Sequence record: PZ513998.1 | Direction: 5' to 3' (one strand) | From: a phage | Length of the DNA: 56,697 bases | Shown here: positions 28,603 through 43,689 of the stretch, piece after piece | Numbering within the stretch: position 1 is the stretch's first letter | Layout: every line of letters begins with the position of its first letter | Notes under the pieces: model-generated | The model's database searches: none | What the model saw: only the letters and a program-made list of their open reading frames with translations | What the model was told of the DNA's origin: nothing | Program-made: the position numbers and the translations under genes

Positions 28603-29466
28603 ATGAAAGACCTAACAAAACCTTTAGTAGAAATCGATATCGACGTTAGAACGGATTACCTACCTCACGGTGTTTTATCCGTTGATATCAAAACCGAGGA
28701 AATATCTCACGAACTAAAATCGTTACTAGCCGATACATTTGAAGCCATGGTAGTTCGTTTGATTTCTTCGGAGAGAAAATACCAAAGAGGGAACTCTTAC
28801 CAGAACGAAGAACTAGCGCAAAGCGGTGAACTCGCATTCCGGATCGCCGACCGGCTTAAAAATTTCCAAGATATTGACGCCATGAATTTGATTATGTTTT
28901 CCATGTACCATCAGGCGTATTCTGGACAACAAATTCATCTAATGGATAGTTGTATTAAAGATTTCCATCGCGGGGTGGTAGACGCGTATAACTTCATTGA
29001 TTCTACTTGCCCTCCCGGTTGTGCTGAGGAAGCGTTCCGAACACTGCTTATGAGCGAGTTAGTCGACACTACCATGAAAGAACTCGGCAAAGGCGATAAA
29101 ACCTCATACAAGATGTTAGGTGGCGATACGGCCAAGTTATCCGTTAACCCCCCTAAGTCCCTAAAAGCATTTGCGGATCAACTAGGCGACGAGGAGCTTT
29201 ACATCTATAACATTCTAGGCATGAATTTTGTGATCCCATGGTGGGGCGATACCGTAGTAGCGAATAAGGAAAAACAACTACTCGTGTTCCCGGGTGTACC
29301 ATATGTTGATCGAGAGACCGATAGATGGCGTTCACCAGACTGTGAAGATTTCCAAAAAGACGGTCTCGTTATCGGCACAATAGATGTCTCGAAAGAAAGA
29401 GAATATCTCATTGATGGTTTTATTCTATCTCTGTCCGCATTCAACCGCAAACCGCTAGAGGGCTAA
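28603..29466 (+). CDS. hypothetical protein
   Basis: 287-aa ORF. Confidence 0.3.
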   Translation: MKDLTKPLVEIDIDVRTDYLPHGVLSVDIKTEEISHELKSLLADTFEAMVVRLISSERKYQRGNSYQNEELAQSGELAFRIADRLKNFQDIDAMNLIMFSMYHQAYSGQQIHLMDSCIKDFHRGVVDAYNFIDSTCPPGCAEEAFRTLLMSELVDTTMKELGKGDKTSYKMLGGDTAKLSVNPPKSLKAFADQLGDEELYIYNILGMNFVIPWWGDTVVANKEKQLLVFPGVPYVDRETDRWRSPDCEDFQKDGLVIGTIDVSKEREYLIDGFILSLSAFNRKPLEG

Positions 29467-29931
29467 ATGAAATTAGTATACATAGCTGGCCCATACCGCG
29501 CAGACACCAAAGAGGGCGTGGCTGAAAATATCCGTAAGGCACAAGTAATCGGGCTATCTCTAACCACCAACGGACATACATTAGGGGTATTCCCCGTGAT
29601 CCCTCACATGAATACGGCGCACTTTGAGACCCACACTTTAACCGTATCACAAAAATTCAGCGCTTTTATTGAGCCGGTGCCAGATGAATACTGGCTACAA
29701 GGAACAATGGCATTGATGGAAAAATGCGATGCGGTTTTATTGACGCACCCACAAGCCGGCATAACAAGCAAGGGAACGCGGGCGGAGGTTATGCGCGCTA
29801 TTGAGTTGGGTATTCCTGTTTATGACCACATAAACGGTCTACTATCTGACCTTAGAGACGAATCAACGCCTCTACGAAGTATTAATGTTTTGAATGACAA
29901 GCGAGAATTTCTCGGGGCGGTTGATGAGTGA
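29467..29931 (+). CDS. nucleoside 2-deoxyribosyltransferase-like protein (DUF1937/DUF4406-type)
   Basis: 154 aa; N-terminal KLVYIAGPYRAD and C-terminal CDAVLLTHPQAGITSKGTRAEVMRAIELGIPVYD typical of this Rossmann-like family. Confidence 0.45.
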   Translation: MKLVYIAGPYRADTKEGVAENIRKAQVIGLSLTTNGHTLGVFPVIPHMNTAHFETHTLTVSQKFSAFIEPVPDEYWLQGTMALMEKCDAVLLTHPQAGITSKGTRAEVMRAIELGIPVYDHINGLLSDLRDESTPLRSINVLNDKREFLGAVDE

Positions 29932-29969
29932 ATGACAAGCGAGAATTTCTCGGGGCGGTTGATGAGTGA
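29894..29969 (+). repeat. perfect tandem duplication, 2 x 38 bp (ATGACAAGCGAGAATTTCTCGGGGCGGTTGATGAGTGA)
   Basis: copy 1 at 29894-29931 is the 3' end of ORF 29467-29931; copy 2 at 29932-29969 is the 5' end of the next frame-1 ORF, read in a different codon phase. Confidence 0.9.
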
Positions 29970-30147
29970 TGTAGCGTACTTAATAGTCGTTGCGATGTGT
30001 GCCTTAGTTATAACACTAGGGATACGGAAATAAATGCCCCTTTACTTTATTATCAAAACCGGCAAGACCGCTCACCGTCTTCACCACCCCAACCGCACAA
30101 CCTTTGTCCTAGGCAGTTATGAAATAAAACTTGGTCGGCCGTTTTAG

Positions 30148-30402
30148 ATGTCCTTTTGGGCTAAAATCAAGGCGATGGCTCTAGGGGTCGTCGCCTTTTT
30201 TGTCCTCCTATTCCTAACGTGGCGTAAAGGAAAACAGGACGGAAAGAACGAGAAAGTTATCGAAGATATTATCGATAACCATATTGAACAAGAACGAGTT
30301 AATGAGGTAAAACAAGATGTCGATTCGGGGATTAATAGCTTACCGGACGGCGGTAGTTCTGATCGTCTTCGCAGTGGTTGGTTGCGTAAAGACCGTAAAT
30401 AA
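30148..30402 (+). CDS. putative lysis-associated membrane protein (holin- or spanin-like)
   Basis: 84 aa; single N-terminal TM helix (AMALGVVAFFVLLFLTW) then charged helical tail; next to putative lysin. Confidence 0.3.
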   Translation: MSFWAKIKAMALGVVAFFVLLFLTWRKGKQDGKNEKVIEDIIDNHIEQERVNEVKQDVDSGINSLPDGGSSDRLRSGWLRKDRK

Positions 30403-31107
30403 ATGGCGAATTTAAAGCCTAAAGGTATCAGACAAAATAACCCGGGTAACTTGGAGTGGGGATCTCCTTGGCAGGGGCTAGTACCGAAAGCGGAGAGAAC
30501 GTCTCCTCGCTTTTGTGAATTCGTAAATCCGGTTTATGGTATTCGTGCGATCGCAGTAACGTTAATCACGTATTACGATAAGCGCAAATCAAAGAACGGC
30601 TCTCGCATCGACTCCGCGCGTGAAATCGTTGAGCGTTGGGCGCCGGGGTCGGAGAAAGGGAATAATACCAACGTATACGCTAAAAACTTAGCAGACCTAC
30701 TAGGCGTTGGCCCGGACGACGAAGTTATCGATATGCACGACTACGACCAGTTGTTTTTATTGGTGTCAGGCATCATCGGTACAGAAAACGGCTTCAATGG
30801 GCCACTCAAAGGCAAAACGGTAAACACTTGGTATTCTGACGAGACTATCGAAGAAGCCCTCCGTATGGCCGGGGTGACTAAGAAACCGAAAGTCGTTAAT
30901 TCTACTGCAACCGTAGCAGCCGGCACCGCAGCACTAGGCGTCGCTCAGTTGGTTGAGGTCGTCCAGCCGGTCAAGGAGGCGGTACACAATGCCTCGGGAG
31001 ACCTTTCATCTGGCGACTACGCTAGAATCTTCCTCGGCGTCGCCACCGTCGGGATCGGGATTTACCTCGGCTATGTCCGCTACCGTAAATTCAAATTGGG
31101 GCAGTGA
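30403..31107 (+). CDS. putative cell-wall hydrolase (endolysin-like) with C-terminal membrane anchor
   Basis: 234 aa; N-terminal IRQNNPGNLEW motif; C-terminal hydrophobic helix RIFLGVATVGIGIYLGYV; flanked by small TM proteins. Confidence 0.3.
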   Translation: MANLKPKGIRQNNPGNLEWGSPWQGLVPKAERTSPRFCEFVNPVYGIRAIAVTLITYYDKRKSKNGSRIDSAREIVERWAPGSEKGNNTNVYAKNLADLLGVGPDDEVIDMHDYDQLFLLVSGIIGTENGFNGPLKGKTVNTWYSDETIEEALRMAGVTKKPKVVNSTATVAAGTAALGVAQLVEVVQPVKEAVHNASGDLSSGDYARIFLGVATVGIGIYLGYVRYRKFKLGQ

Positions 31108-31422
31108 ATGGCGGGTAGAGATGGAGGTACGGGAGGCGTTCGCATTGACTTGGCGATCAATATCCCGACTATCCTTTCGCTAATAGCAGCGTTGTGTAGC
31201 GGTATAATGTGGGTTAATAACCAGTTTAGCAATGTTAGAAACGATGTTTTGTTGGTCACGGCTGACGTTAGAGTCCTAGAACAACGAACAACGCAAGCCG
31301 AGCGGGAAATCGCCGATATAAAACATAATACCGCACAACAAATAAACCAGTTTCGAGGTGAAGTTCGCGAAGACCTTAGAGACATTAAAACTAGCGTTCA
31401 AAAACTCGCAGATAAAAAATAG
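31108..31422 (+). CDS. membrane-anchored coiled-coil protein (spanin-like)
   Basis: 104 aa; TM helix IPTILSLIAALCSGIMWV followed by heptad-like charged helix. Confidence 0.3.
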   Translation: MAGRDGGTGGVRIDLAINIPTILSLIAALCSGIMWVNNQFSNVRNDVLLVTADVRVLEQRTTQAEREIADIKHNTAQQINQFRGEVREDLRDIKTSVQKLADKK

Positions 31423-33408
31423 ATGGCAGTCAACGCAAGGAACACTTCGCGGGCTGTCGTTTATCAGATCTTGCCTGACTTTAGGGCAAGGTCTACCCAC
31501 CGGAATGTTCTATATCAGGTCTCCGCGAAACTGCGTTTTCGGTCGCAGCACCGAAACGTGGTCTACCAAATACCGCCATTTCGTGCTAGGTCGGTCGTTT
31601 CTAATATAGTATATAGTACCGATTCAACTGCAAGAACGGTAATTACTGTCCCACAAGCGCTAAACCAAGTTGTCTATAACACGTCGTACCAGTTTGAGAT
31701 TTCAAACAATATCATTGGTGGGGTAATAAATACCGCGACCTATTCATGGGTTGAAGCGTTGCCGATCTCTAAACTTGATGTGAAGTCTTTTACGCAACTG
31801 GTGGTCGTTGGTACGGAATACGACACTACGTCCATGAAGTTTATCGGGCAAAACGTCCACCTCGTAAACCAAGGGCTACCGCAACCCCGCCCGGTCGATA
31901 CATGGTCGAACACGGAGATGGGTTCCGAGGTTATGCTCGTTTGTCAGTCTTTGGATATCGAATATATCCCGAGATCCGGGGTTGACTCTCCTAGCGTTGT
32001 ATCGTTGGTTTCCTACTCATCTCCGATAAAATGGGAGACAAGACCGGCTGACGTCGGTACGGTAACACATTTAGCATCGGTTCCGACGGATTTGTTCGGC
32101 CTCCCTAACTCTTTCACATCTTCCGGGAGTGTCGTTCAATTGTCGTCGTACCCGTCCACACCTCCGGCACGAGTAGGGGTTGAAAACGTCCCTCAGATTG
32201 TCAGTTTAGCCTCGATACCGGTAGGCGATGATCCGACCGTCGGAGTGGAGAAATCGTCTCAGGTTTTCACTCAAGCGATTCTGTCATCGGATTATGTATA
32301 TCCGCAATCCGATACTGATGTCGGCCAAGTTTTATTGTCACAAGTTGAGTCGGTCATTGATGAACTACCGATTTCCCCGGAGGACGTTAGTTCCGTTGTG
32401 TCCTTATCGGCGATTGGGGTCGACGCAACATGGAGTTGGTCAGATATATCTTCACCGTCAGTTAATATTTTGGCCGTACAAGATAGCCCGCAACCTCCGC
32501 TAGAGTCGTACTTCGTTTTAAATGCGGTAGGGTCTGCTACGGTGGCGATGTTATTAGAATCGGACTTCGGGCCGGCACACAAAGACAGTTACACCGAAAC
32601 GTATTCCGTACCGATCCTATCGTTGATGACTGCGCCTAAACGGTTTTACCCGCCTCTTGATAACGTGGTAGAACTTGAGAAAGGAAACCATGTTACTCAA
32701 TACGTTACGTCTACTGCGATGAAACGTGACGACGGTATGCCGATATCTACGGAAGATGTCGCCTCACTATCCATTGTTTCCGGGATAAAATCTCCGATGC
32801 CAACTCCGGACGAAGTTGCGAGGAAAGGCGACTTTATTTCGGGCCTATCGCAACACACCATGGTTACGAGTTCGTTCCCGTCTACGGAAGAACCTCAGAG
32901 TTATGTTGAAACGGGTAGTTTAGCTAAAAATATCGCGGTAACGGCATCGTACCCTGATATTCGTCTACCGATGACAGTTGGCCAAACGGACTTAGTAGCA
33001 TTTAATATCGCTAACTCGGTTGACTACCCGCCGGTGAAATCGTTTTTAATGTATGATTTCGCGGGATTAGTAACACAAAATATCGCGTGTAAGGCTAACT
33101 ATTTGCCCGCAAATACGCTAAACTCCTTATCGTTGACGACACAAACTTCGGCTAACGTTGCGTTCTCGGCCAGATACCCTGATAAAAGTACGGTTTATTC
33201 GCGAATTAATTCCGCTCAGGTTTCATCTTCGCTGGCAACGGTAGCTGAGTACCCGGATAAAGACTCAGTTCTTTCAGACATAAAGTCTACGTCCGTGTAT
33301 CAAAATGTTGTGCGCGTCGATTCTTCGTTATATCACATGCCACACCCACCGCAGAGACATCGCGTTAGGATCGTGTGTAAGATGATATATGGATATAAGA
33401 ACCGATAA
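31423..33408 (+). CDS. repeat-containing tail fibre-like structural protein
   Basis: 661 aa; N-terminal repeated RNVxYQ motif and recurring xYPD/YPP motifs; Ser/Thr/Val-rich; sits in tail-fibre position. Confidence 0.4.
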   Translation: MAVNARNTSRAVVYQILPDFRARSTHRNVLYQVSAKLRFRSQHRNVVYQIPPFRARSVVSNIVYSTDSTARTVITVPQALNQVVYNTSYQFEISNNIIGGVINTATYSWVEALPISKLDVKSFTQLVVVGTEYDTTSMKFIGQNVHLVNQGLPQPRPVDTWSNTEMGSEVMLVCQSLDIEYIPRSGVDSPSVVSLVSYSSPIKWETRPADVGTVTHLASVPTDLFGLPNSFTSSGSVVQLSSYPSTPPARVGVENVPQIVSLASIPVGDDPTVGVEKSSQVFTQAILSSDYVYPQSDTDVGQVLLSQVESVIDELPISPEDVSSVVSLSAIGVDATWSWSDISSPSVNILAVQDSPQPPLESYFVLNAVGSATVAMLLESDFGPAHKDSYTETYSVPILSLMTAPKRFYPPLDNVVELEKGNHVTQYVTSTAMKRDDGMPISTEDVASLSIVSGIKSPMPTPDEVARKGDFISGLSQHTMVTSSFPSTEEPQSYVETGSLAKNIAVTASYPDIRLPMTVGQTDLVAFNIANSVDYPPVKSFLMYDFAGLVTQNIACKANYLPANTLNSLSLTTQTSANVAFSARYPDKSTVYSRINSAQVSSSLATVAEYPDKDSVLSDIKSTSVYQNVVRVDSSLYHMPHPPQRHRVRIVCKMIYGYKNR

Positions 33409-34986
33409 ATGTTGACGGGAGGTTATAGCGATGAAAGTTGGTTGCCTGACGATTCTTACGCTCCTAATGGCTCTCTAGACGTATCTAAGATCCCGCTATT
33501 CACGGTAGATAGTCGTGGCTTATTTAATGGCGGTAATACTGGGGCTATGTTGTATACTTTTAGAGCTTCCGGCCTCTATGCTCCCGTATCCGCACCGTGG
33601 TCGCCTAGCTACCCTTTCGGGTATCCGTTCAATAGTCCGAGTATTCGACCGGAGTTATCCCCGAGCGGTTTTTCTATTGTACCTTGCCCGACTAGACCCG
33701 GAAGAAAGCGCTTCATGTTCCCCGGAAAAAAGATGGTCGGTAGACCCCTTACTTCTACAAGTAGCAGTGATAACTGGTCGGGGTCTCCTAACTGCTTCTC
33801 AATTCGCTATCGCATTCCTAGACCGTCGGTATCGGCTCCGGCAGGGCGTCAAACTAGCATATCTTTTGTAGCTAGATTTAATAGACGTACGGATAAGACC
33901 ACTAGACTAGCTTGGTATTTTTCTGTCGGATACCCGTCGATTAAGGTTCGACCGGGATACCAAACTAACTGGAGGAATTATGGGCTATCCAGTTTATGTC
34001 CGGGGTTCTTCGCTAGTTATATAATTTTTGGGAGTTCTAAACGTATAAATCTAGGGTCAGGAACACCGGGAGATACGGAGACTTGCACTTATTCAGATGG
34101 TCTTCCGTGGGTGTGCTTAAGACCTAACAACGAATTAGCTACGGATATACCCAACCCGACGGTACCGGGGAGAGACGGTCATTTTTTCAAATTTGAGTTC
34201 GACCGAGATTACCATATAGAAATTTTGTTGAGGATAAACTCCGCTACAAACAATTATGTAACTCGACCCTCCGTGAAAGTATTCATCGATGGGGAACCCG
34301 TCAGCAGTTGGAACGTTTCTGGAGCCAATGACGAGTTCTGGATTCCGCCCGAGGATACGTCAAATTTAGCTACTTCGGATCGGGTAAACTCAGAGAACTT
34401 TCTTACAGGGTTGCAGTTTAATTTTCAGATGAATCATAAGTACAACGTGTCAGTTTACCCGACGTATCACTATCCGGAGATGGCGGAGGAGTCCGGCCCG
34501 GTATTGATTAGTGATATCGTGGTAGGGGAGTCCAGTGCTTCCGACGGAGAAGTTGTCTTCGGGCCGTCAACTCGCGTATGGGGAGACGCTCCTAACTCGG
34601 ATATCGAGACATCATTCAAACGGCCACAAAGTTTCGATTCTAATGCTAGCGTGGTTGGTGCCCCCATGGGGTCGAATGTTGTTGATGAGGGGGCCGAGTT
34701 ATCCGGTGGGGCTGGAGACCGAGACATGTATAAAACCGATGGTAGTTCTATGCCGGATTTCGCCGGGAATATCTTAGGAGTTCAAGTAAAATCGATAGTT
34801 CGTGCCCCGTCCGCTGACGGCGAGGTCGTATCGCTACTAGGAGAAAGAGAATTGGGGTCTACCGAACTAAAGGCTTCGAATGGCGGGCGCTATTCGTCCG
34901 TAGCTCACACGATTACTTATACAACCCCCACCTCTCCTGAAGAAATATCCAATACTGCTTACGGTATATCAGTGAAAGAGGTATAA
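33409..34986 (+). CDS. putative tail fibre / receptor-binding structural protein
   Basis: 525-aa ORF adjacent to fibre-like genes; no catalytic motif recognised. Confidence 0.35.
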   Translation: MLTGGYSDESWLPDDSYAPNGSLDVSKIPLFTVDSRGLFNGGNTGAMLYTFRASGLYAPVSAPWSPSYPFGYPFNSPSIRPELSPSGFSIVPCPTRPGRKRFMFPGKKMVGRPLTSTSSSDNWSGSPNCFSIRYRIPRPSVSAPAGRQTSISFVARFNRRTDKTTRLAWYFSVGYPSIKVRPGYQTNWRNYGLSSLCPGFFASYIIFGSSKRINLGSGTPGDTETCTYSDGLPWVCLRPNNELATDIPNPTVPGRDGHFFKFEFDRDYHIEILLRINSATNNYVTRPSVKVFIDGEPVSSWNVSGANDEFWIPPEDTSNLATSDRVNSENFLTGLQFNFQMNHKYNVSVYPTYHYPEMAEESGPVLISDIVVGESSASDGEVVFGPSTRVWGDAPNSDIETSFKRPQSFDSNASVVGAPMGSNVVDEGAELSGGAGDRDMYKTDGSSMPDFAGNILGVQVKSIVRAPSADGEVVSLLGERELGSTELKASNGGRYSSVAHTITYTTPTSPEEISNTAYGISVKEV

Positions 34987-36003
34987 ATGTTAAAACATCA
35001 AGACGGTTTCGACCACTACGCAGATATCGGCAAGAAAGGTTCCGTAGTCGAGCCGTACTTAAAAGCAGCCGGGTATGATATCCGAAATGCTACTGACGAT
35101 ACGTTCCAGATTGACCTAGGTCGTCGTGACGGCGCTAAGAGCCTTAAATTTACCGTAGAACGTAACTCCGCAACCAATGCGTCGCTATCATGGGGGTTCA
35201 CTCCGGCCGGAAACTACGCGTGTTTCGGTTTCGCGATGAAAGCCAATGGTTCTCGTATGCGAGTATGTCGGGTTGAGAACTTGGTCGACGTGGAGTGGGA
35301 TAGCGAAGACGGTAAGCTAGAAATTGATGGCCAAAAAGGGGTAAACCCGCTGATCCTTAATGCGTGGTATTTTTTCGAGATAGAACTTGATAAGTCCGCT
35401 AAGAAAGTAACCGTATGGGTTAATAACGAAAAGCAAATCGAGGCGACCCTTACTACTTCTTGGCCTGAAAAACTCGTTCTGGTATGGGGGCAAGTGGGTA
35501 CAGCGCCCAATGCGGGTATCCAGTACCTAGATGATTTTTACGCTATGGACGATTCGGGGTCGGTAAACACTTCCCGCCTAGGGCCGATTGAGGTTGCTAC
35601 CCGCGCTCCTACTTCTGATGTTACGACCGAATGGGAGATCGTTAACGGCACTAACGAAAATCACTACCAAGTTGCCTCCCAACTGGAGCCGGGGAGACCT
35701 AACGCACCGTATTTACAGTCTAACAAGTCGGGAGCTAAAGACATTTTCCGTTCTAATACGATCCTACCGACTAACAACAAGGTTTTCGGCGTGTCGGTGA
35801 TTGCGTATGCCCGTAAAGGGGACTTAGACGACCGCAAACTCGGTATGGTGATCCAGACTGACGGGGGTTCTGAGAAAGAAGTCCAAGTACCGTTGACCGA
35901 AGACTATAAATACTACCAAGTTACCCACGAACAAACTCCGGGTAATACCGACTGGAATAAAGGCGCTGTCGAAGCATTGCAGTTCGGCATCGTGACTCGA
36001 TAG
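34987..36003 (+). CDS. tail-associated protein, paralog 1 of 3
   Basis: 338 aa; shares motifs with the next two ORFs (GFD near N-terminus, WYFFEIEL, RLGPIEVATRAPTSDVTTEW, C-terminal FGIV). Confidence 0.4.
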   Translation: MLKHQDGFDHYADIGKKGSVVEPYLKAAGYDIRNATDDTFQIDLGRRDGAKSLKFTVERNSATNASLSWGFTPAGNYACFGFAMKANGSRMRVCRVENLVDVEWDSEDGKLEIDGQKGVNPLILNAWYFFEIELDKSAKKVTVWVNNEKQIEATLTTSWPEKLVLVWGQVGTAPNAGIQYLDDFYAMDDSGSVNTSRLGPIEVATRAPTSDVTTEWEIVNGTNENHYQVASQLEPGRPNAPYLQSNKSGAKDIFRSNTILPTNNKVFGVSVIAYARKGDLDDRKLGMVIQTDGGSEKEVQVPLTEDYKYYQVTHEQTPGNTDWNKGAVEALQFGIVTR

Positions 36004-36987
36004 ATGATGCAATTTATGGACGGTTTCGACCAGCTAAAAGATATGCCGTCGGATAAGATGGTAAATTTACTCAACAACTCGGGGTACAACGCAGTACCGC
36101 CGATCCGTATTGCGGAGGGACGTAATACAGAAACCCGATGCTTATACCTAGGTGATGTAAACGAGAACGCAGCAAGCCCGGCAACACTGTCTCGACTTTT
36201 TAACTCCGAGACTAACCGTGTGGTTATCGGTTTTGCGTATTGTGCGGACAAAGTGCGGGACGATATTATCCGTATTCCCGGTTTTGGGGTGCTCGCTTGG
36301 AACCGCGACAATGGTAAAGTCTCCTTGGCCGGTGTTACGGGTCAAGCTATCTTGCTCCTAGGTATCTGGTACTATTTCGAGATCGTCATCAACAAAGAAA
36401 CAAATACTTTCCAAGTTTTTATTAATAACGGTGCGGACTTAGCTGGACAACTACCGGATAGTGTTCGTTTCATGACAGACTACAAATGCGAATGGCCGGG
36501 CGGTTCTGGCGGTAAAAAATTAGATGATATCGTTTTTATCGATGCGCAAGCCGGCAAATACGTTGACCGAGTTGGCCCGATTGAAATACTCACCCGAATG
36601 CCGACGGTGGACGTGGTGAGCGAATGGTCGCCATCGAAAGGCGATAACCACTGGTCTCTTGTCAGTAATCGCCCTCCGAAAGAGGACGAATATATTCAGT
36701 CTAACGTCTCCGGCGCGATGGATACTTTCAAAAGTGAAATCCCGCTCGACGCTAAAGGCGACATCTTGGCCGTGAGTGTCACCGCGATCAACCGTAAATC
36801 TGACGTAGATAATAGACAACTCGGGTTGGTGGTTGGCGAGAAAGACAAACAGTTGGAAAAGGTAGATGAAAAACTTACCTTGACTGACAAAATAAGTTAT
36901 GCTGTATTCGAAAATTCTCCGCTCGGCGCTAATTGGGATCGCGATAATATCCCTGAAACTCCGTTCGGTGTAGTTATTAGACCATAA
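36004..36987 (+). CDS. tail-associated protein, paralog 2 of 3
   Basis: 327 aa; WYYFEIVINK, RVGPIEILTRMPTVDVVSEW, FGVV shared with neighbours. Confidence 0.4.
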   Translation: MMQFMDGFDQLKDMPSDKMVNLLNNSGYNAVPPIRIAEGRNTETRCLYLGDVNENAASPATLSRLFNSETNRVVIGFAYCADKVRDDIIRIPGFGVLAWNRDNGKVSLAGVTGQAILLLGIWYYFEIVINKETNTFQVFINNGADLAGQLPDSVRFMTDYKCEWPGGSGGKKLDDIVFIDAQAGKYVDRVGPIEILTRMPTVDVVSEWSPSKGDNHWSLVSNRPPKEDEYIQSNVSGAMDTFKSEIPLDAKGDILAVSVTAINRKSDVDNRQLGLVVGEKDKQLEKVDEKLTLTDKISYAVFENSPLGANWDRDNIPETPFGVVIRP

Positions 36988-37908
36988 ATGTTTTTCTTCG
37001 AGGGGTTCGAACAGTTCGCCTTCGATGGGGATTCCCCGGCTTTCATGCGTAGAGCCGGGTATACCGTTTCGGGGTCTTTCGGCTTCGGCGCAGGACGTAA
37101 GAACGGCGCAAGCGTCCTACTCGGCCGAGGTCGAATATCCCGAGATTTCCCATCTGATACCGGCAATTTTACCGTAGGTTTCGCGTTCAATATGACCACG
37201 AGAGGAAATCTCGTAGGCATCTCAGGCGGGGATAGTACGCTTAAAGTTGGTGTAGACCAGACCACAGGGTTATTACAGTCCGAGGGAGAGTCAGGTTACG
37301 TTATCCCATTGCGTAACAACTGGTACTATCTAGAAGTGGAAGTAAACAAAGACGCAAAGACGGCCGACGTCTATATCAATGGTAAAAAAGACATTACGGT
37401 TTCGATACCAGATGGCGTAGCGACGGCAGACACGCTCACAATAACATTGCGGGACTTCGACGAGTCGGATTTTGCGGACATTCGCTTCGATGACTTGTAT
37501 TATGCCGACACTACGAGAGTCGGGCCTATCACCGTCACTACTCGCGTTCCGACGAAAGACGTATCGAAAGATTGGGGTGTTTCCGGTGGGGAATCTCACC
37601 ATGAGGTCGTAGCTCCCGCACTACCGAACTTAGTTGACCGGTTCATCTATACGGGGACGAATGGTGCTACGGATTCTTTCACCTCGGAAACCGTGCTATC
37701 AGAGGAGACAGAAGTAAAAGGTGTTTCGGTGATAACACTCCTCCGAAAAGCCACCGTAGATCCAGTTAGCGTAGATGTGTTCACAAACGAGCTAGTTAAA
37801 AACGAAGCTACGTTACCTCGTGATTGGGAGTACCGCTACTCAGAACTTGGAGTGCTCCCGGAGCACGTAATACCGGACTCAACTTTCGGAATAACTCTAA
37901 AAGCGTAA
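36988..37908 (+). CDS. tail-associated protein, paralog 3 of 3
   Basis: 306 aa; WYYLEVEVNK, RVGPITVTTRVPTKDVSKDW, FGIT shared with neighbours. Confidence 0.4.
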   Translation: MFFFEGFEQFAFDGDSPAFMRRAGYTVSGSFGFGAGRKNGASVLLGRGRISRDFPSDTGNFTVGFAFNMTTRGNLVGISGGDSTLKVGVDQTTGLLQSEGESGYVIPLRNNWYYLEVEVNKDAKTADVYINGKKDITVSIPDGVATADTLTITLRDFDESDFADIRFDDLYYADTTRVGPITVTTRVPTKDVSKDWGVSGGESHHEVVAPALPNLVDRFIYTGTNGATDSFTSETVLSEETEVKGVSVITLLRKATVDPVSVDVFTNELVKNEATLPRDWEYRYSELGVLPEHVIPDSTFGITLKA

Positions 37909-38646
37909 ATGAAAATTGCCCCTAACATGGGGCTTTCCTATGGTTGGGTGAGAGGCGAGGATTTTTGGGGTGGCCCAATGAACGAGACGCTAACCACCTT
38001 AGATACTGTTACGTTTCTACGCCTACAATCTATCACGTTTAGTGCGCCACCGGCTGACGCTAAAAACGGCGACACCTATTTTATCTATAAAAACCCGACT
38101 GGCCCTTGGGTTGGCCAAGAAAGAAAACTGGCCGTATTGATCGACGGCGTGTGGCAATTCATCGAACCCAAACGAGGTTGGCGAGCATTCTTAGACCCGA
38201 CCAGTGAGTTTATCTGGTGGGACGGGGAGACGTGGCGTATTGAGAATACCGGAGTTGACCCGATCAACCCTAACCCATCTCCCGATGTTGTACCTATGGC
38301 GTTTGATGTATCCGCGACTATTTCGGAGAAGATGTATCCATCGGAAGTGCTCGTACACTTGCCAATTATCGACAATATGTACCTACCGGCTAACATGGCA
38401 CAATCTCAATTCGACGCCCGTAGTGCTTTTCTCGATAAAGCTAAGTTCACTGTGCAGAGAAATAACCAAACTGTCGGCACATTCACTGTCGATCGGGGGC
38501 AATATAACGCCACTTTCGTGACGTCTGGTAGCGTTGCCGTGAGATTTTTCAAAGGTGACAGGCTGACAATCTTAGCTCCGGTTGATACAATCGACTCAGC
38601 CGTTAACTTCGGCTTTATTATTAGATTAATGATTCAGGGGGCTTAA
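37909..38646 (+). CDS. hypothetical tail-associated protein
   Basis: 245-aa ORF between the paralog triplet and the J-like protein. Confidence 0.3.
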   Translation: MKIAPNMGLSYGWVRGEDFWGGPMNETLTTLDTVTFLRLQSITFSAPPADAKNGDTYFIYKNPTGPWVGQERKLAVLIDGVWQFIEPKRGWRAFLDPTSEFIWWDGETWRIENTGVDPINPNPSPDVVPMAFDVSATISEKMYPSEVLVHLPIIDNMYLPANMAQSQFDARSAFLDKAKFTVQRNNQTVGTFTVDRGQYNATFVTSGSVAVRFFKGDRLTILAPVDTIDSAVNFGFIIRLMIQGA

Positions 38647-41600
38647 ATGGGGCTACACATGGGGATCGGCCGTGGCCCTATTGATGAATTGATGGAAATC
38701 GAGGTCGGCGGAAGAACCGCTTGGCGTGGTTCCGTTAAAGAGTCCTCGTTCTTTCGGATACGGGCTGAAAATCTTTTCGGGGGTAAGAAAGCGGAGGGAG
38801 GCATTGAGGGTGGTTTCGAACTCTACATGGGCGATAAGGATCAGGTCGTTAGCGACAAACTTAAATCCATGTTGGGCGGTGGGAGCCAACCGGAGTTTCG
38901 CGGAGTAGCTACCGGCTATTTCGATGGTTTAGTGTCGGCCATGAACCCATACCCGAAAGCGTGGCGATTTAAAATACGTCGCATCTTAAAAGGTTGGGAC
39001 GGTGGGGTGTGGTATCCGGAAAAAGCGGTCATAGAACTTACCGGCCACGATGACGAGGGGAAAGAGTATCCCATCAAGGCGATGAACCCGGCTCACGTTA
39101 TTTACGAGTGTATGACAAACCGAGATTGGGGCCGAGGTATCTCTCGTGACCTACTGTTTGACTCGGAGTTCCGAAAGGTGGCCGATACGTTGTTCGAGGA
39201 GGGGTTCGGGATCTGTATTGCGTGGAGACGCCAAGACACCCTAGAGTCTTTTATCCAGAATATACTTAACCACATTTCAGGCGTGTTATACGTCGATAAG
39301 TTTACCGGTACTTTCAAACTCAAGTTACTTCGTAATGACTACGATGCGGATAACTTGCCGGTGTACGGTTTTGAGAGCGGGTTACTACAAATCGAGGAAG
39401 CGACTAACGGCGCAATCCATGGTCTGATGAATGAGTGTGTCGTTAAATGGTTCAACCCGATCGTCGGTAAAGAGAGTCAAGTTCGAGCACAGAACCTAGC
39501 CCTGATTCAGACTTCCGGCGCCATCAAAAGCGACACATTCACGTATGAGGGGGTGCCAACCGCAAAACTGGCCACTATCATAGCAGAAAGAGACTTACGT
39601 GTTGCGTCTACTAACGTCCGCCGGTTCACCCTAGTTTGTGACCGTCGAGCATGGCGAGTACAACCGGGAGACGTTTTGAAGATTTCCGACCCAAAGACAC
39701 GCGGACTTGAGAGCGTAATCGTTCGTGTAGCGGACACAGAGGAGAGTAAACAATCCGATGGTCAGATACGATTATCTTGCGTACAAGACACGTTCTCGTT
39801 CGACCTGAACACGTTTACTGGTGTTCAAGACCCGTCTTTCCCTAAACCGAACCTAAACCCGGTTCCGGCCAGACGTTTAGTTTATGAGGCGACATACGCA
39901 GAATTGTCGTCCCTATTCCCACTAGGAGAGTTTGAGGCCATCAAGCCGTCTTTCGGGTATTTGCGGGCACAGGCGGAAAAAGGCTCACCGGTAACGATGG
40001 CGTTCGAGATGCACGTCCAAAACCCGACCACTGGAAAGTATGAGAAAACAGGTGCGGGGGATTTCACTGCGCTATTCGAATTACCGGTTGACCTTGGATA
40101 TTTAGACCGCTATATCCGAATGAAAGATCCGGTAGATGAAGACTTGATTGAAGTCGGGGACGTTTTTTACGTCAACCAAGAAATAATCATGATCCAGTCT
40201 ATCGAGGAAGACGGGTTAGTCGAAATACGTCGAGGCGTGTACGACACCGTACCTCACCAACACCCCGCTGGCTCCGTAGTGTGGGATATGGTTCAAGGTG
40301 GCGGGCTTGACCTGACAACCCGACAAGCGGGAGAAACCTTATCGGTGAAGATACTCCCATGGACGCTATCGGGTGGGGTTCTCGACGAGTCTAACGTGTC
40401 CGAAGATGAACTGACTTTCAATTACCGATTCTACCGCCCATACGCTCCGGGTAAAGTAGAACTCACCTCAGTGGAAAGCACGGAACCGAACCCTTGGTTT
40501 AATGGCCATGTTTTACGAGCGGACGTCGGAGAGGCCGAAGTGCCTGACGCCTTGACGATAACGTGGGCGCACCGAGATAGACCGATGCAACAAGACAAGC
40601 CTATTTATCATGAGCAAGATAGTATCGGGCCGGAGCCGGGAACGACATACCGAATTAGTATCCTAAACGCTAAGGGTGAAGTAATCCGCAGAGAAAACGG
40701 GATTACCGGCACACAGTTTGTCTACACTTACGGCCAAGCGAGCCTAGATTTGAACGTGGAAGCGTCAGCCATAGATCCGGTTGCTGGGTACTTGAGATTA
40801 GAGTCTATGCGCGACGGGTTCGAATCGTGGCAAAACTACTTAATACCGATCACCGTTTTCAAGAAACCGCCTCAAATGGCGTATGTTAGTTTCTTAAACC
40901 AATCTGTCGCTCAGGTGTCCGATAAAATCGACCCCGAAGATAAAGACGGAGAGACGGCCGTAGACGCAAAAGCCATGGTTAGTTTTGTCAACCAATCCGT
41001 AGCACAGGAGAGCGAAGATCTATCTTCCGGTGGCGGGGGCCTACCTGATGGCGTGAATGTTAGCTATGTGCGACAACCGGTTTCGCAACAAGGCAAATTA
41101 GTTCCTATCGTAGATAGCCAACTGTTTGAGTTCCCTTACTTAATGTTGCTACGCCATGGGTTCGAACCGTCCGCCTCACAATTCTTCGCTACGGTAGCTA
41201 GACCGTCAGACCGTGTAACCGACGGGTACGATTTGTTCGAGAAAGAGAAGAACGATACAGAGTACGTGAACCAAGGGGCGCAACCGTGGACGCCGTGGGG
41301 GATTCTGTCTAAGGCAATCTCATATCTGGATAATGAGATAATCCTCGATGCTACGTCGGATTCTGACGGGGTTCCTACTGAGGACGCGATGCCGGGCGAC
41401 GTGATTTTCGTCGGAGCCGAAGCGATGGTGATCCGGGGCATCGATGGTAAACGTATTACGGTTGGCCGTGGTTGTGTTGATACAATCCCCGCACTTCATG
41501 GGAAAGGTCAAGTTGTGTGGTTTGTCGACAAACAAATAGCTTCCGGGCAACGTAAATATCACGACGGCCAGACTTGCGTAGTTGCCGTAAGGCCTCATTC

Positions 41601-42426
41601 TCTCGCAGCAGAAATCCAGCCTAAAGACGTGGTAAACAAACAACTGGAAGTGAAACTACGCGCGGATAGACCATATCCACCGGGGTTCTTGCTCGGCAAC
41701 GGTGAGCACTTTTTCAAAGGGTGGGACGCACTGGCCGATAACTTTGACTACTATGACCCGCAAGGCAAAGACTTAGTGATGACGTGGGCGCACCGTAACC
41801 GAGTTCGTCAAGGGGAAACCGTGTTAGACCATCTTGATGTGGGACAACAACGGCCAAGCGACGTAATGTATCGAGTGTGGATCGGGAAACGATATACTCC
41901 TAGATACAGCAATCGCACAGTTACTATCACCATGGGGACGTATTATACTCGCGACGCAGGAATGACGATCAAGGCCGAAGACTTACACGCGTTCGGCAGA
42001 CGAGTAGGGATCTTGACGGAATCCACCGGCTACGTCTATGTTTCGATCACGGTATCCGCTGTCGATGAAAACGAGCTTAGTAGCTGGCAAGGATATAATA
42101 CTCAGTGTAAAGTACCCTCAATTCCGGCCAAGCGAGATGTTGACCCCAATCCGGGAAGACCTGACCCGGGAACTGGCGGTGGCGAAACTGGCGGTGGCGG
42201 AACTGGCGGTGGTACGAACCCCGGCAATCCAGATCCGGGTCAGCCTGATAGACCGAACCCCGACCCCGACCCGGGCAACCCTGATCCAGAACCTAATCCG
42301 GGCAACCCTGACCCTGATCCGGTCGAGCCTCCGCCACCGTTGGTTGTTGCCGGTTGGTCAAACAAGTGGGATCATGATTGGGCGGAACGACTACCAGACC
42401 AAGACGTCAAAGAGGATACTGAATAA
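38647..42426 (+). CDS. host specificity / central tail fibre protein (lambda gpJ-like)
   Basis: 1259 aa; N-terminus MGLHMGIGRGPIDEL resembles the start of J-like tip proteins; size and position relative to tape measure fit; Pro/Gly/Asp-rich repeat tail at C-terminus. Confidence 0.55.
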   Translation: MGLHMGIGRGPIDELMEIEVGGRTAWRGSVKESSFFRIRAENLFGGKKAEGGIEGGFELYMGDKDQVVSDKLKSMLGGGSQPEFRGVATGYFDGLVSAMNPYPKAWRFKIRRILKGWDGGVWYPEKAVIELTGHDDEGKEYPIKAMNPAHVIYECMTNRDWGRGISRDLLFDSEFRKVADTLFEEGFGICIAWRRQDTLESFIQNILNHISGVLYVDKFTGTFKLKLLRNDYDADNLPVYGFESGLLQIEEATNGAIHGLMNECVVKWFNPIVGKESQVRAQNLALIQTSGAIKSDTFTYEGVPTAKLATIIAERDLRVASTNVRRFTLVCDRRAWRVQPGDVLKISDPKTRGLESVIVRVADTEESKQSDGQIRLSCVQDTFSFDLNTFTGVQDPSFPKPNLNPVPARRLVYEATYAELSSLFPLGEFEAIKPSFGYLRAQAEKGSPVTMAFEMHVQNPTTGKYEKTGAGDFTALFELPVDLGYLDRYIRMKDPVDEDLIEVGDVFYVNQEIIMIQSIEEDGLVEIRRGVYDTVPHQHPAGSVVWDMVQGGGLDLTTRQAGETLSVKILPWTLSGGVLDESNVSEDELTFNYRFYRPYAPGKVELTSVESTEPNPWFNGHVLRADVGEAEVPDALTITWAHRDRPMQQDKPIYHEQDSIGPEPGTTYRISILNAKGEVIRRENGITGTQFVYTYGQASLDLNVEASAIDPVAGYLRLESMRDGFESWQNYLIPITVFKKPPQMAYVSFLNQSVAQVSDKIDPEDKDGETAVDAKAMVSFVNQSVAQESEDLSSGGGGLPDGVNVSYVRQPVSQQGKLVPIVDSQLFEFPYLMLLRHGFEPSASQFFATVARPSDRVTDGYDLFEKEKNDTEYVNQGAQPWTPWGILSKAISYLDNEIILDATSDSDGVPTEDAMPGDVIFVGAEAMVIRGIDGKRITVGRGCVDTIPALHGKGQVVWFVDKQIASGQRKYHDGQTCVVAVRPHSLAAEIQPKDVVNKQLEVKLRADRPYPPGFLLGNGEHFFKGWDALADNFDYYDPQGKDLVMTWAHRNRVRQGETVLDHLDVGQQRPSDVMYRVWIGKRYTPRYSNRTVTITMGTYYTRDAGMTIKAEDLHAFGRRVGILTESTGYVYVSITVSAVDENELSSWQGYNTQCKVPSIPAKRDVDPNPGRPDPGTGGGETGGGGTGGGTNPGNPDPGQPDRPNPDPDPGNPDPEPNPGNPDPDPVEPPPPLVVAGWSNKWDHDWAERLPDQDVKEDTE

Positions 42427-42636
42427 ATGGAAAAAAGAATTTACATCAAACATGTTCGTCAAGCCGGATATTGTGCTAACGGCGTAGGCCGGGTATTAGA
42501 GCGGATCGGTGTTGACGAAAGAGACTTTTTACAGAACGGGTTGCTGATCACCCCGCAACTGGCTAACAACACAAACCCGATGATACGACGTGTGGTAGAA
42601 ATCGCACTCGCTGATAGTGAGGTAAAACGTGGGTAA
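42427..42636 (+). CDS. hypothetical protein
   Basis: 69-aa ORF. Confidence 0.25.
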   Translation: MEKRIYIKHVRQAGYCANGVGRVLERIGVDERDFLQNGLLITPQLANNTNPMIRRVVEIALADSEVKRG

Positions 42637-42873
42637 ATGGGTATCGAATGGGCTTTAGCAGCCATGGTCGCAAGTTTGCTGATCTCAATTGCGTTAACCC
42701 CGAAACCGGCTTCGGCAAAACCGCCGACGTTTGATGACTCTAACATACCTCAGATTGAAGACGGCACACCGCAAACCGTATATTTCGGGGAGTGCTGGAC
42801 AGGAGATTGGCAGGTGTTAGGTTACGGCGATATGAGAACTTCAAAAATCAAAGCAAGTCAGGCTAAAAAATAA
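42637..42873 (+). CDS. hypothetical protein with N-terminal hydrophobic helix
   Basis: 78-aa ORF. Confidence 0.25.
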   Translation: MGIEWALAAMVASLLISIALTPKPASAKPPTFDDSNIPQIEDGTPQTVYFGECWTGDWQVLGYGDMRTSKIKASQAKK

Positions 42874-43689
42874 ATGGCATATAATCAACTAGAAATATCC
42901 ACTGATGACGGTCAGCCGATTTACTTATATGAGTTTCGGCTGAACGACAATTATTGGCGATACACTTCCGCTAAAAAAGATATCCAGATGTTAGGGCAAA
43001 CTTGGCTTGGCACCCCCATGGAAGATGACGGGATACGCCAAACAAGTGACGCCCAATCGGATAGCCTAACCATCTTAATGCCTCAGTCGGCGGTAATAGT
43101 CGATTTGTTCCGGGGCACACCACCAATCAATGCAGTAACGTTAAAGATCCGCAGGTTCCACCGTGGCGATACCGAAGCAGCCGTCTGTTACGTCGGCGAA
43201 GTGCTACAACTAGATACTGCTAACGCTGCCGCAGCTAAGATTACGTGTAACACCCTTTCCGCGTCGATGGAGCAAAACGGTTTACGTTTAGCGTGGTCTC
43301 GCTCGTGCCCCCACGCGTTATACAATTCGTCATGTGGCGTAAACCCGGCCGAGTTTATGGTCGAAGCTACGATACAAAGCGTCGGGTCAAACAATATCAT
43401 GTCTAAGGATTTAGCACCTTACGGGGAATCCTATTTCGCCGGCGGATACATCGAATGGGTAGATAAACTCCGCGGGGTGGAGAGACGCGCTATTCAGGCA
43501 CACAGCTACGACTCAATAGAAATTTTCGGAACCGTGGGCGGAATTACCGGCGGAATGATCATAAAGGTATTTCCCGGCTGTCCTCGAACCGTGGCATCTT
43601 GCCGAGATAAGTTTAATAACCTCGCTAATTATGGCGGAATACCATCAATGCCGGGGCGTTCTCCGTTTGACGGAAATCCGGTTTACTAA
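42874..43689 (+). CDS. minor tail protein with C-terminal Cys cluster (lambda gpL-like)
   Basis: 271 aa; four Cys in the C-terminal half (SCPHALYNSSCG ... GCPRTVASCRD) as in Fe-S-binding gpL-type proteins; position next to tape measure. Confidence 0.4.
   Translation: MAYNQLEISTDDGQPIYLYEFRLNDNYWRYTSAKKDIQMLGQTWLGTPMEDDGIRQTSDAQSDSLTILMPQSAVIVDLFRGTPPINAVTLKIRRFHRGDTEAAVCYVGEVLQLDTANAAAAKITCNTLSASMEQNGLRLAWSRSCPHALYNSSCGVNPAEFMVEATIQSVGSNNIMSKDLAPYGESYFAGGYIEWVDKLRGVERRAIQAHSYDSIEIFGTVGGITGGMIIKVFPGCPRTVASCRDKFNNLANYGGIPSMPGRSPFDGNPVY

What the first reader, a model, noticed from the sequence alone, without database searches (positions are those of the whole stretch)
34987..37908. Tandem triplet of paralogous tail-region proteins
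Three consecutive ORFs of 338, 327 and 306 aa share a common architecture and several near-identical motif positions: an N-terminal GFD motif, WY(F/Y)xEIxxNK, RxGPI(E/T)(V/I)xTRxPTxDV...(E/D)W, and a C-terminal FG(I/V)(V/T) motif. They are otherwise strongly diverged. Diversified tandem paralogs next to fibre and J-like genes suggest alternative receptor-binding or adhesin modules, or structural decoration proteins; I do not recognise the fold.
Basis: seen in the sequence. Interest (0 to 1): 0.6.

Follow-up and report, generated by a model that had tools for sequence, protein, structure and literature searches.

The report
Lectin-fold paralog array in phage tail
Three neighbouring genes of a Chi-like tailed phage are ancient copies of one uncharacterised two-domain, lectin-shaped protein; their counterparts are present in near-equal amounts in purified particles of a related phage, so they are probably fixed parts of its still unresolved flexible tail-fibre apparatus rather than interchangeable host-range modules.

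Summary
ORFs 34987-36003, 36004-36987 and 36988-37908 are true paralogs (27-31% identity, BLASTP E 1e-29 to 4e-47) and share the reported motifs.

The window is Escherichia phage E21 (Casjensviridae, Chi-like) with each ORF turned to the + strand. The native order is BH2P/J-like gp49, DUF2793 gp48, then gp47 (C), gp46 (B), gp45 (A), gp44. gp44 is a fourth, divergent paralog (hhalign 99.4%, E 1.6e-21).

The triplication is ancient: 116 of 117 copies have their nearest relative at the same array position. It is under strong purifying selection (omega 0.01-0.06).

Published mass spectrometry of purified virions of the relative JS26 detected all three orthologs at near-equal, low-copy abundance. 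None is in the Chi tail-tip structure 8VJH.

Best reading: co-assembled structural, probably glycan-binding subunits of the flexible distal fibre apparatus. "Alternative receptor-binding modules" is not supported; the variable gene is gp44.

The parts
36988..37908 (+). Paralog C (E21 gp47, 306 aa). First of the array in native transcription order. Ortholog of Chi gp32, YSD1_31 and JS26 gp54.
   Evidence: ORF. phrog_2448 E 3e-92 and a weak Laminin_G_3 hit (19 bits, below the 27.6-bit cutoff). Maps to L001 6739-7659. JS26 ortholog found in virions with 93% coverage.
36004..36987 (+). Paralog B (E21 gp46, 327 aa). Ortholog of Chi gp33, YSD1_32 and JS26 gp53.
   Evidence: ORF. phrog_2448 E 3.5e-111. 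AlphaFold2 model pLDDT 94.7, pTM 0.91.
36004..36543 (+). N-terminal domain of B (about residues 1-180): ConA-like lectin/glucanase beta-jelly-roll.
36544..36606 (+). Inter-domain linker of B (about residues 181-201), carrying the family's most conserved motif, RVGPIEILTRMPTVDV.
   Evidence: No regular secondary structure in the model, but high pLDDT. R189, G191, P192, R198, P200 and D203 are invariant in 28 sequences.
36607..36984 (+). C-terminal domain of B (about residues 202-327): CBM/galactose-binding-like beta-sandwich.
34987..36003 (+). Paralog A (E21 gp45, 338 aa). Third in native order and the most conserved. Ortholog of Chi gp34, YSD1_33 and JS26 gp52.
   Evidence: ORF. phrog_2448 E 5.6e-120. 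59% identical to Chi gp34. Lowest dN of the tail-tip region.
33409..34986 (+). gp44: a fourth, divergent and expanded paralog. The native CDS is 546 aa with a GTG start 21 codons upstream of the window ORF. It is the mosaic, variable gene of the module.
   Evidence: hhalign of the family profile against the gp44/Chi gp35 profile: probability 99.4%, E 1.6e-21, profile 112-320 against gp44 286-544. Chi gp35 hits phrog_2448 at E 8e-5. E21 and PM87 are only 54% identical here.
37909..38646 (+). gp48, a DUF2793 'tail fiber' protein. Invariant upstream neighbour of the array (context).
   Evidence: PF10983 E 3e-23 and phrog_7049. A DUF2793 homolog ends at the start of the first family copy in 46 of 47 loci. 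No homolog in the PDB.
38647..42426 (+). gp49, BH2P/J-like tail-tip protein (1,259 aa). Homolog of Chi gp30 and YSD1_29, the protein immunogold-labelled on the long fibre (context).
   Evidence: Phage-tail_3 and phrog_6284. PDB 8vjh_A E=0. Literature: PMC12264135.

Best explanation
The three genes, together with the divergent fourth gene gp44, encode paralogous virion proteins of the distal tail apparatus of a Chi-like siphovirus. Each is a compact two-domain protein: an N-terminal ConA-like lectin jelly-roll and a C-terminal CBM-like beta-sandwich, joined by a highly conserved linker. The duplication is ancient. Each copy has its own conserved identity and fixed place in the gene order, directly after the tail-tip protein BH2P and the DUF2793 fibre protein. 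They are therefore non-redundant subunits that are all built into the same particle in low and roughly equal copy number. They sit in the flexible or asymmetric part of the tail end (the fibre, or something attached to it) that symmetric cryo-EM of the Chi tip did not resolve. Most likely they act as structural modules of that apparatus and make weak, multivalent contacts with a conserved saccharide or surface feature of the host envelope or flagellum. Strain-level specificity would come from the variable neighbours gp44 and gp43. Shown: homology, fold class, conserved synteny, purifying selection, virion presence of the orthologs, absence from the solved tip. Inferred: location on the fibre, hetero-oligomeric assembly, ligand binding.
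Against: There is no direct evidence for E21 itself; the proteomics is for JS26, whose proteins are about 50% identical. Spectral counts are only a rough guide to stoichiometry. No ligand is known, and the lectin folds are assigned from predicted models at fold level only (8-14% identity; the Pfam Laminin_G_3 hit is below threshold). Conservation across phages of Salmonella, Proteus, Serratia, Providencia and others argues against binding to variable O-antigens, so the domains may bind other phage proteins instead. Classical electron microscopy describes a thin (2-2.5 nm by my recollection of Schade et al. 1967) fibre, which is hard to reconcile with 4-5 nm globular domains forming its shaft. 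Oligomeric state and partners were not modelled, because no multimer prediction was available.
Confidence: 0.6

Rival explanations
1. Purely architectural subunits. The lectin-type folds are used only as protein-protein building blocks or adaptors that connect BH2P and the DUF2793 protein to the distal, specificity-determining proteins gp44 and gp43. They have no host-ligand binding of their own.
For: Conservation is very strong and host-independent (omega 0.01-0.06; A is more conserved than the hub). Order and copy types are fixed. The variable genes lie just downstream. There is no above-threshold match to any sugar-binding family.
Against: Both domains resemble carbohydrate-binding modules rather than typical phage connector folds. 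In one clade a surface loop accepts a whole extra, possibly propeller-like, domain, which is typical of ligand-binding elaboration. This rival overlaps with the best explanation and differs only on ligand binding.
Confidence: 0.22
2. One reading: alternative or parallel receptor-binding proteins, each recognising a different receptor, that diversify to set host range. This would resemble the multiple tailspikes of Vi01/CBA120-like phages (comparison from general knowledge).
For: Tandem paralogs next to fibre genes with lectin-like folds. All are displayed in the virion.
Against: Each position is an old, separately conserved ortholog class. Selection is strongly purifying and there is no mosaicism among Proteus phages: 99-100% aa identity while the adjacent gp44 is swapped. 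The same three types occur in phages of many host genera.
Confidence: 0.08
3. Virion-borne enzymes, either glycoside hydrolases or polysaccharide lyases of the beta-jelly-roll type (GH16, PL7, PL20 or GH131-like), that degrade a surface polysaccharide.
Against: The top hits are non-catalytic lectin/CBM domains. Only one acidic residue of that strand (E126) is conserved in the family, and B reads EIVINK. There are no Pfam or NCBIfam-type enzyme hits. The one Polysacc_lyase hit is in 1 of 28 members at E 0.0017.
Confidence: 0.07
4. Non-structural helpers, such as fibre assembly chaperones or infection-phase proteins, that are not part of the particle.
For: Tail-fibre genes are often followed by chaperone genes (general knowledge). 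The proteins were not seen in the Chi tip structure.
Against: JS26 orthologs are among the better-sampled proteins of CsCl-purified virions. Three to five 300-550 aa paralogs is unlike known fibre chaperones.
Confidence: 0.03

Closest known systems
PHROG family phrog_2448 (function unknown): Chi gp32/33/34, YSD1_31/32/33, JS26 gp54/53/52
   Same: Full-length, highly significant membership for all three proteins. Same position in the genome. The E21 proteins are identical to GenBank entries annotated as 'hypothetical protein'.
   Different: Nothing differs in sequence terms. What is added here is a fold assignment, the paralog structure (three ortholog classes plus a fourth or fifth divergent member), the selection regime, and the link to existing virion proteomics.
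ConA-like lectin/glucanase superfamily (Pfam clan of Laminin_G_3 PF13385; L-type lectins ERGIC-53/Emp47p, calreticulin, BoNT/NTNH HCN domains, sialidase-associated lectin domains)
   Different: Sequence identity is only 5-14%. The Pfam score is below the gathering threshold. No known sugar or Ca2+ site could be verified. The domain is fused to a second beta-sandwich through a unique conserved linker, and no PDB entry matches the whole protein (TMq 0.38 or lower).
Carbohydrate-binding accessory proteins and domains of siphophage adhesion devices, e.g. BppA of lactococcal phages Tuc2009/TP901-1 and CBM insertions in 'evolved' Dit/Tal (from general knowledge, not tested here)
   Same: Works-like analogy: lectin/CBM-fold modules added to the tail tip to bind host saccharides, in addition to the main receptor-binding protein.
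   Different: No sequence relationship was tested or found. Those are Gram-positive phage baseplate parts, usually single-copy genes. Here there is a fixed series of 3-5 paralogs downstream of a GTA-type tail tip in Gram-negative, flagellotropic phages.
Multi-gene tail fibres such as the T4 long tail fibre gp34-gp35-gp36-gp37 (general knowledge)
   Same: Several consecutive genes, some related to each other, whose products join in a fixed order to make one fibre. Gene order may mirror assembly order.
   Different: T4 fibre proteins are mostly elongated homotrimers. The proteins here are predicted to be compact globular two-domain monomers, and serial assembly is only a hypothesis.
GTA-type tail tip with DUF2793 fibre (Rhodobacter capsulatus GTA, PDB 6TBA; Chi 8VJH; JBD30 8RK3)
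   Same: E21 has the same distal tail, hub and BH2P proteins (hub hits 8vjh_D, 8rk3_g and 6tba; BH2P hits 8vjh_A and 8rk3_o) and a DUF2793 protein.
   Different: The lectin-fold array is an add-on found with the long-BH2P Chi-type cassette. It is absent from YuA, DoCa5, SSP002 and Yonseivirus, which share the tip proteins, and no homolog is present in any of these solved assemblies.

Membership tests
phrog_2448 (uncharacterised phage protein family) | Significant full-length match to the family profile | tested here: met
   E 5.6e-120, 3.5e-111 and 3.2e-92, covering profile positions 1-334 of 335.
ConA-like lectin/glucanase superfamily (Laminin_G_3, PF13385) | Beta-jelly-roll fold superposable on superfamily members | tested here: met
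ConA-like lectin/glucanase superfamily (Laminin_G_3, PF13385) | Pfam HMM score at or above the gathering threshold | tested here: not met
   Only paralog C hits, at 19 bits against a cutoff of 27.6. 1 of 28 distant members hits at E 1e-5.
ConA-like lectin/glucanase superfamily (functional lectins) | Identifiable sugar or Ca2+ binding site, or demonstrated glycan binding | not testable with these tools
Invariant D174, D175, E126, N141, R85, W122 and Y123 are compatible with such a site but are not evidence for it.
CBM / galactose-binding-domain-like beta-sandwich (C-terminal domain) | Fold similarity to carbohydrate-binding modules | tested here: inconclusive
GH16-type glycoside hydrolases | Catalytic ExDx(x)E motif on the cleft strand | tested here: not met
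   The corresponding strand reads EIELD (A), EIVIN (B) and EVEVN (C). Only the first Glu is invariant across the family.
Virion structural proteins of Chi-like phages | Detection in purified virions | tested here: met
   For orthologs, from the literature: JS26 gp54, gp53 and gp52 had 49, 35 and 63 unique peptides and 93%, 77% and 86% coverage (PMC8754663 Table S6). Not measured for E21 itself.
Components of the ordered Chi tail tip (DTP, BH1P, BH2P, TAP; PDB 8VJH) | Homolog present among the modelled chains | tested here: not met
   The hub and BH2P find 8vjh chains. The family profiles and gp48 find none.
Fibrous trimeric tail-fibre or tailspike proteins | Elongated repetitive shaft (beta-helix, coiled coil or collagen-like) or match to fibre families | tested here: not met
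   The monomer model is two compact beta domains with pTM 0.91. There are no fibre or tailspike hits in Pfam, PHROGs or the PDB. Oligomeric state was not tested.
Diversifying / host-range-determining receptor-binding proteins | Elevated dN/dS, mosaic exchange or hypervariability among close relatives | tested here: not met
   omega 0.009-0.062, with 1-4 nonsynonymous against 9-54 synonymous changes. Nucleotide identity is 97-98% across Proteus phages while the adjacent gp44 is replaced.

The most novel reading that the evidence does not exclude
The single 220-nm 'curly' fibre of Chi-like flagellotropic phages is not a simple homotrimeric extension of BH2P. It would instead be a hetero-oligomeric chain assembled in gene order: BH2P C-terminus, DUF2793 protein, C, B, A, a fourth or fifth paralog, then the gp43/gp36-like protein. 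Much of it would be built from globular two-domain lectin-fold 'beads' that give multivalent, low-affinity grip on the rotating flagellar filament. That would be a fibre architecture not described for any phage.
Probability: 0.15. Interest if true: 0.75.

Novelty: new variant of a known kind. Interest (0 to 1): 0.45.

Why it matters
Chi is the model flagellotropic phage, yet the make-up of its fibre is still unsettled. A 2023 paper states that it has not been shown which gene products form it (PMC10399903), and the cryo-EM tail-tip model contains only the tip core. This analysis picks out a conserved set of three to five paralogous lectin-fold virion proteins as the obvious unassigned mass at the tail end. 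It shows they are fixed, non-redundant parts rather than host-range cassettes, and it points to gp44 and gp43 as the variable genes. That gives concrete targets for knockouts, immunolabelling and binding assays, and for engineering host range in Proteus, Salmonella and E. coli therapeutic phages. It also gives a first structural annotation to a large family (about 9,000 50%-identity clusters) that has no Pfam entry and no solved structure and that also occurs in an N4-like viral contig and in jumbo phages.

Tried and rejected
(1) Sequence searches of the PDB with three family profiles found only a weak NTNHA hit and no phage structure.

(2) Whole-protein fold search gave no full-length match, so the C-domain had to be predicted and searched separately.

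(3) I first took the ~625-aa family members with two matched stretches for fused tandem copies. They are single copies with a ~300-aa insertion.

(4) dN/dS against Saba, Kokobel1 and Chi was unusable because synonymous sites are saturated. It was repeated with 96-98% identical Proteus phages. In that run the BH2P C-terminus comparisons with pPM01 and RP6, and the gp44 comparisons with pPM01, are frame or indel artefacts and were ignored.

(5) Klebsiella phage KLPN1 was fetched as a supposed Yonseivirus from memory. It is a Webervirus and was discarded. The true Yonseivirus YMC15/11/N53 was used instead.

(6) gp43 was tested as a possible fifth paralog and rejected (hhalign E 0.29; JS26 gp49 E 0.9).

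(7) Attempts to reach distant family members' genomic contexts mostly led back to Chi-like contigs or nothing.

(8) The Chi cryo-EM paper, the YSD1 2019 paper and the iEPS5 paper are not held. What I say about the content of the Chi tip model therefore rests on PDB chain names, secondary citations, and my recollection of the Chi abstract.

(9) The annotations 'short transient receptor potential channel 6' and 'histone-lysine N-methyltransferase' in some GenBank records have no support from any search here.
Full report
**1. The observation**

The window contains three abutting + strand ORFs at 34987-36003 (338 aa, here A), 36004-36987 (327 aa, B) and 36988-37908 (306 aa, C).

Pairwise BLASTP gives A-B 31% identity, E 4e-47; A-C 27%, E 2e-32; and B-C 29%, E 9e-29. 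The three-way alignment has 55 invariant columns. The paralogy is real and not a chance resemblance.

**2. What the window is**

Megablast shows 100% identity to Escherichia phage E21 (NC_052983; Casjensviridae, Lavrentievavirus), but in several pieces.

Mapping shows that from about 30147 onward each ORF-sized block has been turned individually to the + strand and kept in record order. Intergenic DNA is removed, which is why all ORFs from 30148 to 49710 abut without gap or overlap.

In the real genome the transcription order is:
- distal tail protein gp53
- hub gp52
- gp51 and gp50
- BH2P/J-like tail protein gp49 (1,259 aa)
- DUF2793 'tail fiber' gp48
- gp47 (C), gp46 (B), gp45 (A)
- gp44, gp43
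- lysis genes

The three genes are therefore tandem in nature too, in the reverse of the window order. They are separated by 10-12 nt spacers with SD-like G-rich motifs, and the gp48 stop overlaps the gp47 start.

**3. Family and distribution**

All three are full-length members of phrog_2448, function unknown (E 1e-92 to 1e-120). Pfam has no family for them. Only C gives a sub-threshold Laminin_G_3 hit, 19 bits against a cutoff of 27.6, and distant members fare no better.

An exhaustive profile search of 1.84 billion cluster representatives finds 9,048 proteins at E up to 1e-3 and 3,203 at E up to 1e-10. Nearly all are 310-350 aa and match end to end.

In annotated phage genomes the three copies occur together ('3 places per record') in Chi, YSD1, iEPS5, Enc34, Redjac, JS26, Proteus, Providencia, Cronobacter and other Chi-like phages. 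The orthologs are Chi gp32/33/34 and YSD1_31/32/33, all annotated as hypothetical.

Single or partial homologs occur in jumbo phages: Lu11_0243, and phiRSL1 ORF184, where the family's C-half ends a 735-aa protein lying between two tail-fibre genes. A 71-kb N4-like viral contig carries four tandem copies next to a 1,021-aa tail protein.

**4. More than a triplet**

A family HMM run over 47 distinct related loci finds at least three tandem copies in every one that is long enough. Often a fourth ORF, and sometimes a fifth, matches the C-terminal two-thirds.

For E21 the downstream gene gp44 gives a weak single-sequence match (hhalign E 0.011, hmmsearch E 0.024). A profile of gp44/Chi gp35 homologs against the family profile gives probability 99.4%, E 1.6e-21, from the WYYxE strand to the C-terminus. 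Chi gp35 also hits phrog_2448 directly.

gp44 is thus a fourth, expanded paralog. JS26 has two such extra members, gp51 and gp50. gp43 is not related.

**5. Fold**

An AlphaFold2 model of B built on a 28-sequence alignment is very confident (pLDDT 94.7, pTM 0.91).

- **Whole protein.** No PDB entry matches it (TMq 0.38 or lower).
- **Linker.** The linker between the domains carries the family's most conserved motif.
- **Catalytic motif.** A GH16-type catalytic motif is not conserved: B reads EIVINK.

**6. Evolutionary behaviour**

Across 39 loci with exactly three full copies, 116 of 117 copies have their nearest relative in another phage at the same array position. Mean within-position identities are 38% (C), 47% (B) and 56% (A), and within-phage paralogs are 22-46% identical. 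The duplication therefore predates the Chi-like radiation, and each copy is a distinct conserved entity.

Against Kokobel1, dN is 0.075 for A. The other values are hub 0.123, endolysin 0.149, B 0.153, gp48 0.18, BH2P 0.204, C 0.262, gp43 0.43 and gp44 0.80. dS is saturated.

Among 96-98% identical Proteus phages, omega is 0.009-0.062 for all three. In the same comparison, E21 and PM87 are 99.7% identical in the trio but only 54% in gp44, with the differences spread over the whole gene. This matches the megablast picture, in which most Proteus phages lose similarity exactly at the gp45/gp44 boundary.

The diversifying or exchanged element is gp44 (and gp43), not the trio.

**7. Context dependence**

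In 46 of 47 loci the array directly follows a DUF2793 gene, which in turn follows a BH2P homolog. A further metagenomic contig shows the same order.

Phages that share the GTA-type distal-tail/hub/BH2P module but have a short BH2P lack any family member, even with HMMER filters off. These are Yonseivirus YMC15/11/N53, Xanthomonas DoCa5, Pseudomonas YuA and Vibrio SSP002. So among the GTA-type siphophage tails sampled here the array occurs only with the Chi-type long-fibre cassette. The family itself is not restricted to that cassette (section 3).

**8. Are they in the particle?**

No paper discusses these genes by name. A 2023 study notes that the composition of Chi's fibre has not been shown experimentally (PMC10399903).

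However, the JS26 study (PMC8754663) reports LC-MS/MS of CsCl-purified virions of this flagellotropic Chi-like phage. JS26 gp54, gp53 and gp52 are the C, B and A orthologs.

| JS26 protein | Unique peptides | PSMs | Coverage |
|---|---|---|---|
| gp54 (C) | 49 | 1654 | 93% |
| gp53 (B) | 35 | 1677 | 77% |
| gp52 (A) | 63 | 2108 | 86% |

gp51, gp50 and gp49 were also found.

PSMs per residue are 5.2, 5.3 and 6.2 for the trio. For comparison: BH2P 2.2, hub 2.7, DTP 2.7, tape measure 4.2, portal 7.9, tail tube 37, capsid 76. This is a crude measure. It suggests low copy number (a few to about a dozen) and roughly equal amounts of the three.

**9. Where in the particle?**

The PDB entry for the Chi tail tip (8VJH) contains chains homologous to E21 BH2P and hub. 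Neither the family profiles nor gp48 find any PDB chain.

Secondary sources say that only the N-terminal part of BH2P was ordered and that the fibre is too flexible to analyse (PMC12264135; PMC11945409). I infer that the trio lies in the flexible or symmetry-breaking distal part, either the fibre or appendages on it.

**10. Mechanism proposed**

- **Shown:** four to five consecutive paralogs; a two-domain lectin/CBM-type fold (predicted); fixed synteny; strong constraint; co-presence of the orthologs in virions; absence from the ordered tip.
- **Inferred:** they co-assemble in fixed stoichiometry as modules of the distal fibre apparatus downstream of BH2P and the DUF2793 protein. They probably contribute weak multivalent binding to a conserved host surface structure. 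gp44 and gp43 would provide the variable specificity.

Supporting hints are the ~300-aa insertion, with sub-threshold Ycf48/BNR propeller hits, tolerated in an N-domain loop of the B-type copy in one clade, and the C-terminal placement of the shared half in larger tail proteins.

Rivals are a purely architectural role, parallel receptor-binding proteins, enzymes, and non-virion helpers. They are weighed in the dedicated fields. The last is contradicted by the proteomics, and the receptor-binding-diversification reading by the orthology and selection data.

**11. Novelty and verdict**

The sequences are already in GenBank as hypothetical proteins and the family exists as an unnamed PHROG, so the genes are not new.

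What is new is the fold assignment, the recognition of an ancient fixed array of three core plus one or two divergent paralogs tied to the Chi-type fibre cassette, the demonstration that they are constrained rather than diversifying, and the connection to overlooked virion proteomics.

I classify it as a new variant of a known kind: lectin/CBM-bearing accessory proteins of phage adhesion devices, or multi-gene fibres. Interest is moderate (0.45). The bolder possibility, a heteropolymeric bead-like fibre, cannot be excluded, and I give it about 15%.

Noticed in passing
whole window; shown for 29001-45378: The window is not native genome order. ORF-sized blocks of Escherichia phage E21 are each turned to the + strand and kept in record order, with intergenic DNA removed, so genes that are on the record's minus strand appear in reverse transcriptional order and abut with no gaps. 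Any inference from gene order, spacing, promoters or terminators in this window is unsafe.
   Followed up: yes
window 33409-34986 (gp44): gp44 is a mosaic hot spot. E21 and Proteus phage PM87 are 99.7% identical in the three upstream paralogs but only 54% identical in gp44, with differences spread along the whole protein. Only E21, P2-71 and P-07 share this allele. E21 is recorded on enterotoxigenic E. coli, whereas nearly all close relatives are recorded on Proteus. The window ORF also lacks the first 21 codons of the annotated GTG-start CDS.
   Followed up: partly
window 31423-31610 (start of the gp43 ORF): The long ORF (661 aa) begins with three 17-aa repeats (..VVYQI..FRARS..) at 31456, 31507 and 31558. 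They are better conserved as peptide than as DNA (68-74% at DNA level). RefSeq E21 starts gp43 45 codons later, inside or after these repeats, while PM87 annotates the long form. The long start is probably correct.
   Followed up: partly
window 42142-42339 (gp49 residues 1166-1231): The BH2P/J-like protein ends with a 66-residue low-complexity stretch rich in Pro, Gly, Asp and Asn (DPNPGRPDPGTGGGETGGGG...PDPDPVEPPPP), followed by a short charged tail. It could be a flexible hinge or spacer where the fibre continues.
   Followed up: no
L032-L041, L044, L048, L049, L069 (e.g. L069 5592-7466); proteins P0033, P0038: In one clade of 63-67 kb Chi-like viral contigs the B-type paralog is about 625 aa, because about 300 aa of repeats (...DDGxTW...) are inserted after profile position ~50. 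Only sub-threshold hits to Ycf48/BNR propellers were found (E 0.004), so a propeller domain inserted in a lectin loop is plausible but unproven.
   Followed up: partly
L050 7995-12101: A 71-kb viral contig with an N4-like portal and major head protein carries four tandem full-length family copies (about 24% identical to E21's), followed by a 1,021-aa tail protein. Tandem arrays of this family are therefore not limited to siphoviruses.
   Followed up: partly
L064 4282-6489 (phiRSL1 ORF184); L063 5995-7092 (Lu11_0243): Jumbo phages carry relatives. Lu11_0243 is a full-length member. phiRSL1 ORF184 (735 aa, phrog_30887) has only the family's C-terminal half, at its own C-terminus, between two annotated tail-fibre genes.
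   Followed up: partly
GenBank records OR506460, PV593182, OR850005, OR844950 (hits): Records named as Enterococcus or Staphylococcus phages match Chi-like phages of Gram-negative hosts here: AS-M1_NWU and SVV09-A are 97-99% identical to Proteus Lavrentievaviruses, while SA 1298 Kay and Efm 3-10 match paralog A at the ~59% identity typical of Salmonella Chi-like phages. The host labels look wrong (contamination or mislabelling). Several records also annotate the trio as 'short transient receptor potential channel 6' or 'histone-lysine N-methyltransferase', which nothing here supports.
   Followed up: no
window 30403-31107 (gp41 endolysin): The endolysin has no Pfam hit and, read by eye (no TM prediction was run), a hydrophobic C-terminal segment. 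Its only PHROG matches are lysozyme-like regions of much larger proteins.
   Followed up: no
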